Shown here: positions 33,069-52,551 of the stretch, in pieces
Layout of the letters: each line of letters starts with the position of its first letter
How positions within the stretch are numbered: the first letter of the stretch is position 1
Assembly: GCF_009914755.1 (NCBI RefSeq)
Contig: NC_060930.1
DNA from: the human T2T-CHM13v2.0 reference genome, Homo sapiens
Direction: 5' to 3' (one strand)
DNA length: 64,000 bases
Made by a program: the position numbers and the translations under genes
The notes under the pieces: model-generated
The model's input: the letters and a program-made list of their open reading frames with translations, nothing else
What the model was told of the DNA's origin: nothing
The model's database searches: none

Positions 33069-33255
33069 TCTGTGAACAATCTGAACTCTTTCAACATTTG
33101 CTTTATAGACTCGCTCCAGGTTTAGACATAAGCCAGTCAGGGAGTCTGGCGTTACAAATGATATTTGGTCAAGAAAAAGCAGCAGGATAGAAACTTCTAA
33201 CAACTATTAACAGCCAGTTTACCAATACGTAAGCATAATCTGCCAAACATAGCTG
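33069..33255 (+). pseudogene. Fossil KH-domain exon 2 of an OOEP-like gene
   Basis: Phase-1 acceptor at 33067-33068; DISQSGSLALQMIFGQE / (1-nt frameshift) KQQDRNF*QLLTASLPIRKH aligns ungapped with recalled OOEP [37 protein letters not shown]; ~187 nt to a GT. Confidence 0.5.
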
Positions 33256-35649
33256 GTGTAACTGGTGACTTCACACTTTAGCACTGCACATTTTCTTCTC
33301 AGCCAAATATGTGACAATAATAACAACATGGTAGGAGAAAGGTGCCTGTTGTTATAAGACATTTCCACGTGTCTCATCTCATATAATCCACACTCCCGTT
33401 ATCCCCATTTTGCTATCAGGAAACTGCTTTTAAGATAAGTTTCAATAGGTGTCTAACTAGTAAATGGAGTTTGAACTGGAACCCAACTCTCCTCATGCTA
33501 AGGTTTATATTCATTCTACTAACGCATGGGCTTAGTGTTTATAAAATAAAATGCTTTAAGTAAGTTATCTAGAGGTGCACCTGAGTTAACATAATTAAAA
33601 TTACCAGCTGATCCTTACAAAAAATTTCCCAAAGAAGGTTCTGACTAATATATATTAAAAGGCATGGCCAGTGGGGCACGGTGGCTCAAACCTGTAATCC
33701 TAACACTTTGGGAGGCTGAGGCAGGCAGACAGCTTGAGCTCAAGAGTTTGAGACCAGCCTAGGCAACATGGCAAAACCCCATCTCTACAAAAAATACAAA
33801 AATTAGCTGGGCATGGTGGCATGCACTTATAGTCCCAGCTACTTGAGAGGCTGAGGTGGGAAGATTGCTTGAGCCCAGGAGGTCAAGGCTTCAGTGAGCT
33901 TTCATCATACCACTGCAATCCAGCCTGGGTGACAGGGTAGAGTTCGTCTCAAAAGAACAAAAACAAAAAGCAAGGCATGGCCTTCCTTAGGAATTTGGTT
34001 TGGGGATTCTCTAACAATAGCAACCAATTGAGGGTGTCTGGGCTCATGGTTGGGAATTTTTGTTTGTTTGTTTATTTGTTTTGAGACGAAGTCTCACTCT
34101 TTCGCCAGACTGGAGTACACGATCTCGGCTCACTGCAACCTCCGCCTCCCAGGTTCAAGAGATTCTCCTGCCTCAGCCTCCCGAGTAGCTGGGACTACAG
34201 GTGCACACTACCACACCCGGCTAATTTTTGTATTTTTAGTAGAGATAGGGTTTCACCATGTTGGCCAGGATGGTCTCAATCTCCTGACCTCGTGATCCAC
34301 CTGCCTCGGCCTCCCAAAGTCCTGGGATTACAGGCGTGAGCCACCATGCCTGGCCCTTTTTGGTTCTTGATTATAATTCATCTTTAAATAGTTAAGAGCA
34401 ACTTGTGCTGTTTGATATTCATGGCCAAGTAAAACTCTTTGACCCTCAGACAAACAGTATGATTTCATATATATGAAATATCTAGGCCAGGCATGGTAGC
34501 TCACACCTGTAATCCCAGCATGCTGGGAGGCCAAGACAAGAGAATTGCTTGAGGCCAGGAGTTCAAGATCAGGCTGGGCAACATAGTGATACTTCATCTC
34601 TACTAAAAATTTTTAAAATAAAAATAAATTGTGCCAGGCACAGTGGCTCACGCCTATAATCCCAGCACTTTGGGAGGCCCAAGGTGGGCGGATCACTTGA
34701 GCTCAGGAGTTCGAGACCAGCCTGGCCAACATGGTGAAACTCTGTCTCTACTAAAATACAAAAATTAGCTGGGCGTGGTGGTGCACACCTGTAATCCCAG
34801 CTACTCTGGAGGCTGAGGCAGGAGAATCACTTGAATCCGGGAGGTAGAGGTTGCAGTGAGCTGAGATCGTGCCACTGCACTCCAGCCTGGGCAAGAGAGC
34901 GAGACTCCGTCTCTAAATAAATAAATAAGTAAGTAAGTAAGTAGTAATTAAGCAAGCCAGGTGTGGTGGCACGCACCTATAGTATCAACTACTTGGGAGA
35001 CTAAGGTGGAAGGATCACTTGAGCCTGGGAAGTTGAGGCTGCAGTGAGCCATGATTATGCCACTGCACTCCGGCCTAGGTGACAGAGAGAGACCCTGTCT
35101 CAAAAAAGAAAAAAAAAAGAAATATCTAGAATAAGCAAATATATCAGCAAAAGGTCTCCTACTACTGCTTGACCTACAAGAAAGAGTCAAATAAGTGTTA
35201 GCCCAGTTAAAGTGAACGTTGAGTCTCTGCATCACAGCTCATGCTGTTAGTAGGAAGGATGCATTTGACCATTCCACAAGATTAAAAGATTTCTTACTGA
35301 GAATCCAAGGGCCAAAGGCGGAAGGTGGAGGGAGTGATCAACTCTGAAACCTAGATTCAAAAAGCACTTCTGTGTGACCTCAGAAAAGGTATCTATCTCT
35401 CAGCATCAGTTTCCCTACCTGTAAAATGGTATTAATCATTCCTAATTCCCAGCAGTTGCTGGATCACATAAGTTAATGTGCCTGAGTGCAAGGCTGTGAG
35501 CCTTCTGCCTTTCCCTAAGACACAGGTGAGCTGCTCATCCAGCAGATGGAGACTGTCTGGAAGGGCCTATTGGGCTGCCTACTATGGTCTCAAGCTTTGA
35601 GTGGCTAGGGCTAGAGGCCTGACCCAACGGGAGCCCACTGGTGAGAGGA

Positions 35650-36653
35650 ATGGCAGTAATTGCAAGGGCAGGGCTTGCAGGAAGAATTTTTAATAGAATC
35701 TGCTGCTCAGGAGCCTTACACAAATTCCCTGGGGCCTGCTTCTTCCTACTCACCACCAGGGCAATACTGGGACCAACATGCTCTTAAGGGAACCTGGTGG
35801 CTTAAGACAGAATATTTTGAGATTCAGATAGTGTTTTACTTTCCCGTGTGGCTATGAAAGTGATTCTAGAGTTGGCACTCAAGTCCAGGTCCCATCTTTC
35901 CTCATTTTGGAAGGCTTTCTGCTGACAAATCCAATATGCTTTTTTTTTTTTTTTTTTTTTTTTTGAGACGGAGTCTCGCTCTGTCGCCCAGGCTGGAGTG
36001 CAGTGGCTATTCATAGGTGCAGTTATAGTGCACTAGCCTGGAGTTCCTGGGCTCAAGCCATCCTCCTGCCCTAGCTTCCTGAATAACTAGGACTACAGCC
36101 ATGCACTACCACACCTGGCTAAATCCAATTATTTTAAATTAGCTGGAAGAAGAAAGACATTGGGGTTCTTCTTACTTCTCCTTGAGAGGACCAGATTTGG
36201 TCCCCAATTTTTAGAACAAAAATATTCACATTGAGAAAGCCAAGGATAGATCGAAGGGAATGCAGAAGCAGTCACATACTAGTTACATGCAGCAAGAAAG
36301 TCATCCTTTAGATTTATAAACTCCTTGTCATGTTGTTTCCTCTCCTGGCCCCTTCTCCACACTTTTAAACAAGCATGTTGTGGTCTCAGTTGAGAGCTTG
36401 ACAAGGTTTTTGCTATGGTTGAGACATCAATCTCTTTTGTAATTGAATCTATTCACCAGGGAGAGTGTGAGCAAACCATGTTCAAGCTCTTTGTCTTTGT
36501 CCTAACTAGGCATTTACCATATAAACATAATAAGAAACAAGCCCCTGCAAGTCTTTCTTTTTAACCAATTATCTGGCTGTTTCTCTTGCTGTAGTCCTGC
36601 CTTCATTAAAAGCTGTCCAGGGGGTAGGGCACAATCTTTGGAAGCATATCTAA
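35650..36653 (+). pseudogene. Decayed multi-exon OOEP/DPPA5/KHDC1-family pseudogene
   Basis: Exon-1-like WWLKTEYFEIQIVFYFPVWL (35795-35854); exon-2-like phase-1 G|GA CCA GAT = GPD at 36189, then EGNAEAVTY*LHAAR...INSLS; exon-3-like acceptor at 36593-36594 (LPSLKAVQ). Confidence 0.55.
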
Positions 36654-51711: not shown

Positions 51712-52019
51712 AGGCCGGGTGCAGTGGCTCATGCCTGTAATCCCAACACTTTGGGAGGCCCAGGCGGGCAGATCACCTGAGGTTGGGAATTTGAGACCAG
51801 CCTGACCAACATGGAGAAACCCCGTCCCTACTAAAAATACAAAAAGCTGGGCATGGTGGCGCATACCTATAATCCCAGCTACTCGGGAGGCTGAGGCAGG
51901 AGAATCACTTGAACCCAGGAGGTGAAGGTTGTGGTCAGCCAAGATCGCACCACTGCACTCCAGCCTGGGCAACAAGAGCGAAACTCTGTCTTAAAAACAA
52001 AACAACAAAAAAACAAAAA
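51712..52019 (+). mobile_element. AluSp-like element with 14-bp TSD cagatcccagtctg
   Basis: TSD at 51698-51711 and 52020-52033. Confidence 0.9.
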
Positions 52020-52089
52020 CAGATCCCAGTCTGTTTGCAGGCAGTGGCACCCAGCCTGGTTGCAACCCTGTGCGGGGTGACACGGCTCT

Positions 52090-52551
52090 ATGGGAAGTGT
52101 GTCCATCCCGGAAAGGGACTCCTTTTGCATACTTGCCTCACTGGTGCAGGTTTAGGCACATTCTGAAACCATCAGTGCTTTACTTGGTGGCTGGTCACCT
52201 GGAAAAGATATTTGGTAAGTGTCCTGGTGTCTTTACCACTGCGCTACACTTTTGACTCCCCTGGCTCACCCTAAACCACCCGCCTGAAACCTAAGGCAGA
52301 ATCTAGTGTCCTGCAGGCCAGCATCCCAGTGACATCTTTCCCCTCTCCCCCCAATCCCCTCCCAGCCTTGCCCCATTTGGTAAAACTTCAACCTTCCTTT
52401 CTACACAGGCTCAAGCAGAGTCTTCCTCCTGGTGTTCCAGAAGGAGTTCAAGGTCCTGCTCCATATGGGACAGCTAGATTCTGAGGGCAATGTTGAGATC
52501 CTCATCTCCAGAAGGTGCTGGTGCCAGAAATATGACAAAAGGCTGATTGAC
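52090..52551 (+). pseudogene. Unprocessed KHDC3L(FILIA)/OOEP-like KH-domain pseudogene: exon 1 52090-52214, intron 52215-52408, truncated exon 2 52409-52551
   Basis: Exon 1 ends LPHW...LKPSVLYLVAGHLEKIF-G|GTAAGT; polypyrimidine acceptor at 52407-52408, phase 1; exon 2 [40 protein letters not shown] has 12/40 identities, ungapped, to recalled KHDC3L exon 2; 1-nt frameshift after the ATG; cut by Alus. Confidence 0.75.

What the first reader, a model, noticed from the sequence alone, without database searches (positions are those of the whole stretch)
33069..52551. Possible graveyard of lost maternal-effect KH genes between KHDC1 and the DPPA5/KHDC3L/OOEP side
Up to four plus-strand relics (33.1, 35.7, 41.1, 52.1 kb) share the compact family architecture: exon 1 ending IFG in phase 1, a 130-200-nt intron, and a ~183-nt KH exon. 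They resemble different family members and are decayed to different degrees. This suggests the ancestral cluster, which supplies subcortical maternal complex subunits OOEP and KHDC3L, was a larger birth-and-death array. Some relics may be unitary pseudogenes still coding in other mammals. Those right of 40 kb lie downstream of the divergent promoter and may be transcribed as lncRNA.
Basis: inference. Interest (0 to 1): 0.8.

Follow-up and report, generated by a model that had tools for sequence, protein, structure and literature searches.

The report
One dead KH gene, not four
Of four suspected dead copies of maternal-effect KH genes in this stretch of human chromosome 6, only one is demonstrably real: an ancient gene copy broken by Alu insertions, whose main exon is now spliced into a non-coding RNA.

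Summary
At 52.13-52.55 kb (+) lie two colinear exon remnants of a KHDC1/DPPA5/KHDC3L/OOEP-family gene, which I call R52.

- **Profile matches:** Pfam MOEP19 matches both pieces. Exon 1 covers profile 3-30 (E 0.0044) and the KH exon covers 29-74 (E 1.4e-4), meeting where the living genes split.
- **Architecture:** exon 1 ends ..IFG with the Gly codon split. A 194-nt GTAAGT..CAG intron follows, against 196 nt in KHDC3L.
- **Spliced reading:** read spliced, it aligns without gaps to a KHDC3L profile at 31.8 bits; 300 shuffles reach at most 4.2.
- **Decay:** it has no ATG, the KH exon is cut by Alus from about 52553, and it falls outside all four living subfamilies on a very long branch.
- **Reuse:** all four annotated KHDC1-AS1 exon variants here start at 52409, which is exactly the relic's acceptor.

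The 33.1 and 41.1 kb sites score 0.4 and 0.1 bits and are chance. The 35.8 kb site (6.0 bits, hhalign P 0.005) is noise-level and stays undecided.

Outside the window, a cluster-wide scan found one more relic at +77.3 kb and a probable one at +86.4 kb.

The parts
51995..52132 (+). Open frame upstream of the relic's domain-coding part. It holds no ATG, so the start codon is lost. An Alu (about 51711-52015) abuts it.
   Evidence: ORF list; translation (no M in 74 residues); Alu extent from the blastn rows.
52133..52214 (+). R52 exon 1 remnant. It encodes the first strand and helix of the MOEP19 domain and ends ..LEKIFG with the Gly codon split (phase 1).
   Evidence: Pfam MOEP19 profile 3-30, E 0.0044, 17.4 bits; own KHDC3L profile 16.0 bits against a reversed-sequence null maximum of 9.6; hhalign P 1.5e-4 in the right columns.
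52215..52408 (+). R52 intron of 194 nt, GTAAGT...polypyrimidine tract...CACAG.
   Evidence: Sequence. Family intron lengths are KHDC3L 196, OOEP 217, KHDC1 168 and DPPA5 81, all GT..AG.
52409..52552 (+). R52 KH-exon remnant: 144 nt, open, in phase with exon 1. It doubles as the start of KHDC1-AS1 exons 52409-52514, -52558, -52563 and -53613.
   Evidence: Pfam MOEP19 profile 29-74, E 1.4e-4, 22.2 bits; PF16005 genome search 20.5 bits; hhalign P 2e-5; exon starts from the hub annotation; cryptic donors AAG|GT after 52514 and GCG|GT after 52563 read.
52553..53318 (+). Block of two Alus plus a partial one that cuts off the 3' end of the KH exon. The last 33-39 nt of the exon and its donor were not found beyond it.
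   Evidence: Sequences; NCBI mask 52549-53173 (hub annotation).
35783..35863 (+). Claimed relic at 35.7 kb. An exon-1-like stretch, single copy, followed by three stops. Not significant and left undecided.
   Evidence: 6.0 bits OOEP profile and 5.0 pan-family; 5 null places at 6 bits or more in 184 kb; Pfam none; hhalign P 0.0049, probability 7%; single copy.
33161..33172 (+). Claimed relic at 33.1 kb. A chance IFG|GT motif, not a family remnant.
   Evidence: Best profile score 0.4 bits; Pfam none; hhalign P 0.37; motif frequency.
41270..41284 (+). Claimed relic at 41.1 kb. The motif is ..SFG followed by GC. Not a family remnant.
   Evidence: Sequence and best profile score of 0.1 bits; Pfam none.

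Best explanation
The window holds one unannotated, unprocessed pseudogene of the KHDC1/DPPA5/KHDC3L/OOEP (MOEP19) family, R52, at 52133-52552 (+).

**Origin.** It arose by tandem gene duplication early in the family's history. It is closest to the KHDC3L/OOEP type but belongs to none of the four living subfamilies.

**State now.** It is dead as a gene. It has no start codon, its KH exon is cut by Alu insertions, and no third exon was found.

**What still works.** Its intron-exon junction does. The acceptor of the old KH exon is the 3' splice site of an internal exon of the lncRNA KHDC1-AS1, which is transcribed from the divergent promoter at about 39.9 kb. Cryptic donors inside the relic (after 52514) or inside the Alu (after 52563) replace the lost donor.

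**The other three sites.** The places at 33.1 and 41.1 kb are chance motifs. The one at 35.8 kb is unproven.

**Shown:** homology, exon architecture, breaks, and coincidence with the annotated lncRNA exon.

**Inferred:** time of origin, order of the inactivating events, and that the lncRNA use is a by-product with no function of its own.
For: - **Calibrated profile matches.** Both exon remnants match Pfam MOEP19 colinearly (17.4 and 22.2 bits, E 0.0044 and 1.4e-4 per protein against 24,736 models). They meet at profile position 29/30, where KHDC1's own exons meet (1-29 and 28-84).
- **Genome-wide search.** With PF16005, 7 of 30 matches fall below the cut-off, and the R52 KH exon is the only one of those inside the 165-kb cluster. 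My arithmetic puts the chance expectation at about 4e-4.
- **Own subfamily profiles** (52 KHDC1, 25 KHDC3L, 28 OOEP, 69 DPPA5 sequences). The two R52 pieces are the best non-gene hits in the window at 16.0 and 10.1 bits; the reversed-sequence null maximum is 9.6.
- **Spliced reading.** Scores are KHDC3L 31.8, pan-family 23.2, OOEP 21.1, DPPA5 12.9 and KHDC1 4.7 bits. The alignment has 69 columns and no gap. None of 300 shuffles exceeds 4.2 bits.
- **Single-sequence search.** phmmer of the spliced reading against the 313 fetched proteins ranks KHDC3L proteins first (37.0, 29.6, 28.1 bits).
- **hhalign** on each exon gives P 2e-5 and 1.5e-4, in the right columns.
- **Architecture.** The donor is G|GTAAGT, the intron is 194 nt against KHDC3L's 196, and the acceptor is CACAG|.
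- **Age.** Nucleotide identity in codon register to KHDC3L is 51% and 49%. There is no blastn match to KHDC1.
- **Copy number.** The DNA is single copy in the genome.
- **Negatives for the other three sites.** 0 of 9 X-read pieces and 0 of 40 stop-free ORFs match any Pfam family. Best profile scores are 0.4, 6.0 and 0.1 bits.
Against: - Neither exon alone reaches Pfam's curated 30-bit cut-off, and the joined reading could not be sent to Pfam.
- At whole-genome scale the KH exon has E 1.12. Its significance therefore rests on location, colinearity and architecture.
- The language-model look-alike search did not recognise the KH exon (best score 0.81, no family).
- tblastn with KHDC1 and KHDC1L proteins found nothing here.
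- The frame is open for 121 codons, which only 0.7% of random window frames are. There is no indel over 69 aligned columns. Both are odd for a very old pseudogene and leave room for a recent death, or for residual coding use that I cannot see.
- Placement on the tree is unsure: the end branch is 2.7-3.4 changes per column.
- Use of the exon by KHDC1-AS1 is taken from the RefSeq table, not from reads.
Confidence: 0.85

Rival explanations
1. One reading: all four places (33.1, 35.7, 41.1, 52.1 kb) are decayed family members, so the graveyard lies inside this interval.
For: All four carry an ..FG motif on the + strand. The 35.8-kb stretch aligns to the right profile columns.
Against: - Best profile scores are 0.4 bits at 33.1 kb and 0.1 bits at 41.1 kb.
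- Pfam matched 0 of 9 X-read pieces and 0 of 40 ORFs.
- IFG|GT occurs by chance 5 times in the window.
- The 41.1-kb motif lacks a GT donor.
Confidence: 0.03
2. Two relics lie in the window: R52 plus a much more decayed exon-1 stump at 35783-35863, whose KH exon was destroyed, for instance by the Alu just downstream.
For: - The OOEP profile gives 6.0 bits against a reversed null maximum of 3.8 for that model in 184 kb.
- It is the third-best exon-1-type OOEP hit in the cluster, after R77 and R52.
- hhalign gives P 0.0049 in the homologous columns.
- The sequence is single copy.
- A KHDC1-only profile ranked it first among non-gene hits at 7.0 bits.
Against: - Five null places reach 6 bits or more with some model.
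- A 6.2-bit OOEP hit lies in a repeat at 44.35 kb.
- Pfam found nothing, and hhalign probability is 7%.
- There is no ..FG|GT end, three stops follow, and no KH exon lies within 600 nt.
- The place was picked by eye for this very motif, so the scores are not independent of the choice.
Confidence: 0.3
3. R52 is a chance resemblance in unique intergenic DNA.
For: Each piece is short (28 and 46 aligned residues) and below Pfam's cut-off. The Atlas search was blank.
Against: - Two independent pieces lie on one strand, in the right order, abutting at the family's own exon junction.
- A consensus donor and acceptor sit in the right phase.
- The spliced reading scores 31.8 bits against 4.2 or less in 300 shuffles.
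- The location is inside the family's only multi-exon cluster.
Confidence: 0.03
4. R52 is a processed retrocopy or a recent segmental copy of KHDC3L.
For: KHDC3L is the best-scoring subfamily and has nearly the same intron length. The genome holds many retrocopies of the family on other chromosomes.
Against: - It keeps the intron, so it is not processed.
- Identity to KHDC3L is only 49-51% at nucleotide level and 31-34% at protein level at best.
- It lies outside the KHDC3L clade, which stays whole in 95-96% of bootstrap trees.
Confidence: 0.02

Closest known systems
KHDC3L (ECAT1/FILIA), subcortical maternal complex member, 87 kb downstream on the same strand
   Same: - It is the best-scoring subfamily profile at 31.8 bits.
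- Exon 1 ends the same way (..EKIFG), with the same phase.
- Intron length is 196 nt against 194 nt.
- It lies on the same strand.
   Different: - Protein identity is only 31-34% at best and nucleotide identity about 50%.
- R52 falls outside the KHDC3L clade.
- The KHDC3L-specific N-terminal 28 profile positions do not align.
- R52 has no ATG, a truncated KH exon, and no repeat-rich third exon was found.
OOEP
   Same: It is the second-best profile at 21.1 bits, and has the same domain and exon plan.
   Different: OOEP lies on the opposite strand, has a 217-nt intron, and scores lower.
KHDC1P1 (annotated pseudogene 14 kb upstream of the window) and KHDC1L
   Same: They are family copies in the same cluster that kept the intron.
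   Different: They are young KHDC1-type duplicates: 127.8 bits with the KHDC1 profile, and 85-92% DNA identity between KHDC1 and KHDC1L. R52 is old, is not KHDC1-type (4.7 bits), and is unannotated in the RefSeq table supplied.
Pseudogene-derived lncRNA exons (exonisation of dead-gene splice sites)
   Same: An old acceptor with its polypyrimidine tract serves a non-coding transcript, and cryptic or Alu-borne donors close the exon (hub annotation).
   Different: Here the host lncRNA starts 12.5 kb upstream at another gene's divergent promoter and picks up only the KH exon, not exon 1. No function of the exon is known. The FANTOM6 preprint (passages read) reports cis effects of KHDC1-AS1 knockdown on KCNQ5 but says nothing about this exon.

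Membership tests
MOEP19 / KHDC1-DPPA5-KHDC3L-OOEP family (PF16005), R52 as a gene remnant | Significant match to the family profile | tested here: met
   Pfam E 0.0044 and 1.4e-4 for the two exons, colinear. The spliced reading scores 31.8 bits on an own KHDC3L profile, against 4.2 or less in 300 shuffles. hhalign gives P 2e-5 and 1.5e-4.
MOEP19 / KHDC1-DPPA5-KHDC3L-OOEP family (PF16005), R52 as a gene remnant | Pfam curated cut-off of 30 bits for the whole protein | tested here: inconclusive
   The exons score 17.4 and 22.2 bits singly. The joined reading could not be handed to Pfam, so the sum of 39.6 is my arithmetic, not a tool result.
MOEP19 / KHDC1-DPPA5-KHDC3L-OOEP family (PF16005), R52 as a gene remnant | Family gene plan: exon 1 ends [IL]FG with the Gly codon split, then a short GT..AG intron, then a KH exon of 177-183 nt | tested here: met
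   Donor G|GTAAGT at 52214/52215, 194-nt intron, acceptor at 52408/52409. Only 144 nt of the KH exon remain before the Alu.
MOEP19 / KHDC1-DPPA5-KHDC3L-OOEP family (PF16005), R52 as a gene remnant | Lies in the chromosome 6 cluster | tested here: met
   Window 52.1 kb, which is C6:74452133-74452552, between KHDC1 and DPPA5.
Functional member of the family (coding gene) | Start codon, complete KH exon, third exon | tested here: not met
   No ATG in the 74-codon open frame before the donor. The KH exon is cut by an Alu at about 52553. No further family match lies downstream.
KHDC3L subfamily (orthologue or recent copy) | Falls inside the KHDC3L clade | tested here: not met
   R52 lies outside all four clades in two trees. 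Its end branch is 2.7-3.4, and the KHDC3L clade stays whole in 95-96% of bootstrap trees.
Processed pseudogene (retrocopy) | No introns | tested here: not met
   The 194-nt intron is retained at the family's junction.
MOEP19 relic, places at 33.1 and 41.1 kb | Any match to the family profile | tested here: not met
   0.4 and 0.1 bits. Pfam found nothing in 6 X-read pieces and 28 ORFs. hhalign gives P 0.37 for 33.1 kb; 41.1 kb was not run in hhalign.
MOEP19 relic, place at 35.8 kb | Match to the family profile above the noise | tested here: inconclusive
   6.0 bits, hhalign P 0.0049 with probability 7%, Pfam nothing. The null reaches 6 bits or more at 5 places in 184 kb.

The most novel reading that the evidence does not exclude
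R52 is not an early casualty. It is the human remnant of a fifth (and, with R77 and R86, sixth and seventh) paralogue lineage of the subcortical-maternal-complex KH family.

This lineage stayed under coding constraint long after the duplication and was lost only in the primate line, when Alus hit its 5' end and its KH exon. It may still be a working oocyte gene in other mammals.

**Points in favour:**
- The spliced frame is open for 121 codons, as only 0.7% of random frames are.
- There is no indel over 69 aligned columns despite about 50% nucleotide divergence.
- It has a weak sister grouping (75/63) with P0155. That intact 156-aa family protein fits none of the four subfamilies: OOEP 55, KHDC3L 54, DPPA5 44, KHDC1 26 bits.
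Probability: 0.2. Interest if true: 0.55.

Novelty: new member of a known kind. Interest (0 to 1): 0.35.

Why it matters
KHDC3L and OOEP are subunits of the subcortical maternal complex, and KHDC3L mutations cause recurrent hydatidiform mole.

The family is described in print as sitting in an unstable, fast-evolving eutherian region (passage in PMC6816490 citing Pierre et al. 2007). R52, and R77 and R86 outside the window, put fixed points on that history. They show that the ancestral array held more members of the KHDC3L/OOEP type than survive in humans, and they give exact coordinates to look for living orthologues in other mammals.

It is also a clean case of a dead gene's splice site being reused by a lncRNA (KHDC1-AS1).

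For annotation, it explains where one lncRNA exon comes from. It also warns that three of the four motif-based calls were false.

Tried and rejected
- **tblastn** with the spliced KHDC1 and KHDC1L proteins found only the two genes. In 33-52.6 kb nothing scored better than E 0.24.
- **blastn** of the KHDC1 and KHDC1L gene DNA and of R52 against the window gave only Alu matches.
I replaced it with 9 longer pieces over the three doubtful places and 40 of the 42 stop-free ORFs listed. The two ORFs left out are Alu-derived, at 35926-36033 and 35967-36071.
- **A semi-global DNA alignment** of the R52 unit against the four living units was badly scored and is uninformative (z -1.9 to 1.5). Only the in-register identities from that call are used.
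- **The rest of the KH exon** beyond the Alus (53319 onward): no target-site duplication and no profile match were found.
- **An exon 2 for R77:** none was found. A MIR-like element follows exon 1 (the MIR name is recalled, not tested).
- **Other sub-null hits** were dropped as noise or repeat: 22037 (8.1 bits), 43357 (7.9, in what looks like L1-derived sequence, recalled), 44349 (6.2, in masked repeat), and +70.9 kb (9.2, Pfam none).
- **ESM Atlas** with the R52 KH exon: best score 0.81, no family.
- **Pierre et al. 2007 (Genomics)** is not held. I saw it only as a citation, so it may already list human pseudogenes in this interval.
- **Literature searches:** KHDC1+DPPA5+OOEP+pseudogene (6 papers), C6orf147 (5), KHDC1-AS1 (1) and KHDC3L+OOEP+DPPA5+KHDC1+evolution (8). 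I read listings only, except for passages in PMC7226043, PMC6816490 and the FANTOM6 preprint. None of what I read mentions a relic at this place.

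
Full report
**What was claimed.** Each was said to have exon 1 ending IFG in phase 1, a 130-200-nt intron and a KH exon of about 183 nt.

**First pass.**
- I spliced the annotated KHDC1 and KHDC1L coding parts.
- tblastn with them finds only the two genes. In 33-52.6 kb nothing beats E 0.24.
- blastn of the gene DNA gives only Alu matches.
- So anything there must be old and not of KHDC1 type.

**The 52.1-kb relic (R52) is real: profile evidence.**
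- The open frame 51995-52252 matches Pfam MOEP19 (PF16005) at profile 3-30 (E 0.0044, 17.4 bits). The frame 52384-52548 matches profile 29-74 (E 1.4e-4, 22.2 bits).
- KHDC1's own exons match 1-29 and 28-84, so the relic's two pieces meet at the family's exon junction.
- These E-values are for one protein against 24,736 models. Corrected instead for the roughly 2,700 open frames of 20 aa or more in the window (my estimate from the density), they stay near 5e-4 and 1.5e-5.

**R52: splice sites.** The sequence shows exon 1 ending ..LEKIFG with donor G|GTAAGT after 52214. A 194-nt intron follows, then a polypyrimidine tract and CACAG|, with the KH exon starting at 52409 in the right phase. The living genes have GT..AG introns of 196 (KHDC3L), 217 (OOEP), 168 (KHDC1) and 81 nt (DPPA5) at the same spot.

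**R52: genome-wide search.** A PF16005 search of the window's own genome returned 30 matches.
- 23 are over the cut-off: the six annotated cluster genes exon by exon, plus intron-less copies on other chromosomes.
- 7 are below it.
- The R52 KH exon (20.5 bits, E 1.12 genome-wide) is the only one of those 7 in the cluster.

**Own profiles and nulls.**
- I collected family proteins with names and built profiles from 52 KHDC1, 25 KHDC3L, 28 OOEP and 69 DPPA5 sequences.
- In a six-frame scan of the window, the best non-gene hits are R52 exon 1 (16.0 bits, KHDC3L profile) and the R52 KH exon (10.1). The reversed window gives at most 9.6.
- Read spliced (51995-52214 plus 52409-52552), R52 scores 31.8 bits with KHDC3L, 23.2 pan-family, 21.1 OOEP, 12.9 DPPA5 and 4.7 KHDC1. 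The alignment has 69 columns and no gap.
- None of 300 shuffles exceeds 4.2 bits.
- phmmer against the 313 fetched proteins ranks KHDC3L proteins first.
- hhalign of each exon against a KHDC3L/OOEP alignment gives P 2e-5 and 1.5e-4 in the right columns.
- The DNA is single copy.

**What kind of copy.**
- The retained intron excludes a retrocopy.
- Identity to KHDC3L in codon register is 51% and 49%, and the best protein identity is 31-34%.
- In two maximum-likelihood trees, R52 sits outside all four subfamily clades, each of which stays whole. Its end branch is 2.7-3.4 changes per column. Its placement is therefore unsure, but a recent origin from KHDC3L is excluded.

**How it is broken.**
- The 74-codon frame before the donor has no ATG, and an Alu (about 51711-52015) abuts its 5' end.
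- Two and a half Alus from 52553 cut off the last 33-39 nt of the KH exon. I could not find the remainder or a third exon.

**An oddity.**
- The spliced frame is open for 121 codons, as only 0.7% of random frames in this window are, and it has no indel.
- This fits a gene that stayed constrained for long and died late.
- It feeds the novel case, together with a weak sister grouping (75/63) to P0155. That intact family protein fits no subfamily, and the Atlas files it nearest to OOEP clusters.
- The Atlas did not recognise the R52 KH exon itself (0.81, no family).

**What it does now.**
- The RefSeq table supplied with the finding lists four KHDC1-AS1 exon variants here: 52409-52514, -52558, -52563 and -53613. 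All start at 52409, which is the relic's acceptor.
- The exon ends are followed by GT (52514, inside the relic; 52563, inside the Alu) or GC (52558).
- So the lncRNA, which starts at the divergent promoter near 39.9 kb, reuses the dead gene's 3' splice site and closes the exon with cryptic donors.
- That the use is annotated is shown. That it has no function of its own is my inference.
- A C6orf147 exon (52056-52198, minus) overlaps relic exon 1 in antisense.

**The other three places.**

| Place | Best profile score, any model, + strand | Other evidence |
|---|---|---|
| 33.1 kb | 0.4 bits | hhalign P 0.37 in unrelated columns |
| 35.7 kb | 6.0 bits | see below |
| 41.1 kb | 0.1 bits | its ..SFG is followed by GC, not GT |

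- Pfam found no family at E of 10 or less in 9 pieces of 300 aa read with X at stops, nor in 40 of the 42 stop-free ORFs of these places. The two Alu ORFs were left out.
- IFG|GT occurs 8 times in the window. Three are family exon ends (KHDC1, KHDC1L, R52) and five are chance, 33161 among them.

**The 35.8-kb stretch in detail.**
- *For:* it aligns to the correct profile columns (hhalign P 0.0049, probability 7%). It beats the OOEP model's own null (maximum 3.8 in 184 kb reversed). It is single copy.
- *Against:* five null places reach 6 bits or more with some model. A repeat at 44.35 kb reaches 6.2. There is no ..FG|GT end and no KH exon follows.
- I leave it at about 0.3.

**Beyond the window.** I fetched the rest of the cluster and scanned 184 kb. 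Positive controls DPPA5, KHDC3L, OOEP and KHDC1P1 score 34-133 bits. Two further places stand out between KHDC1 and DPPA5.
- **R77**, minus strand at window +77306..77392, is an exon-1 remnant of OOEP type. It scores 16.5 bits with my own profile and matches Pfam MOEP19 at E 0.023, 15.1 bits, profile 5-30. It has a stop just upstream, a spoiled donor, and no exon 2 found.
- **R86**, minus strand.
  - *Structure:* an exon-1-like piece ends ..PLFG with G|GTGACC at +86626. A 257-nt intron follows, then an open 177-nt exon (+86368..86192) that enters and leaves in phase 1 and ends CGAG|GTGAGT.
  - *Scores:* read spliced, it scores 15.9 bits with OOEP and 14.6 with KHDC3L across the junction. In 300 shuffles the maximum is 11.6 and the next is 5.1. 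Pfam sees nothing.
  - *Present use:* its second exon encodes the hydrophobic N-terminus of the long KHDC1 isoform, as in the 237-aa gorilla and 243-aa macaque proteins P0008 and P0011.
  - *Reading:* if the homology holds, a dead paralogue's KH exon has been recycled as a new coding exon of its neighbour. I rate that at about 0.5.

**Verdict.**
- The region is already described as unstable and fast-evolving (passage in PMC6816490 citing Pierre et al. 2007; passages in PMC7226043). This is therefore a new member of a known kind, of moderate interest.
- I could not read Pierre et al. 2007 or any GENCODE track, so prior annotation cannot be excluded.

Noticed in passing
L032:3306-3392 (-), which is window +77306..77392, outside the window: A second family relic (R77): an OOEP-type exon-1 remnant. 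Pfam MOEP19 gives E 0.023, 15.1 bits, profile 5-30; my own OOEP profile gives 16.5 bits. A stop lies just upstream, the donor is spoiled, and no exon 2 was found.
   Followed up: partly
L033:2192-2821 (-), which is window +86192..86821, outside the window: A probable third relic (R86) with the full family exon plan..LFG|GT, a 257-nt intron, and a 177-nt phase-1 exon. The spliced reading scores 15.9 bits with OOEP against a shuffle maximum of 11.6; Pfam finds nothing. Its second exon encodes the hydrophobic N-terminus of the long KHDC1 isoform (P0008, P0011). A decayed KH exon may therefore have been recycled as a new coding exon.
   Followed up: partly
protein P0155: An intact 156-aa MOEP19 protein from an unnamed record fits none of the four subfamilies (OOEP 55, KHDC3L 54, DPPA5 44, KHDC1 26 bits). 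It groups weakly with R52 (75/63). The Atlas puts it nearest to OOEP clusters.
   Followed up: partly
L001 (G000:C23:39191844-39192086, -) and other loci: The best PF16005 match in the whole genome (109.7 bits, profile 5-85 in one piece, no stop) is an intron-less copy on contig 23. Further one-piece copies lie on contigs 15, 19, 1, 10, 12, 14 and 4, some open and some with one or two stops. They look like retrocopies, probably of DPPA5 type, but were not examined.
   Followed up: no
window 52056-52198 (-) against 52133-52214 (+): An annotated C6orf147 exon on the minus strand overlaps relic exon 1 in antisense. Both strands of the dead gene therefore contribute to annotated non-coding transcripts (hub annotation).
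   Followed up: no
window 39000-41000: The G+C-rich block (0.53) at the divergent KHDC1 / KHDC1-AS1 promoter holds no family match on either strand.
   Followed up: no
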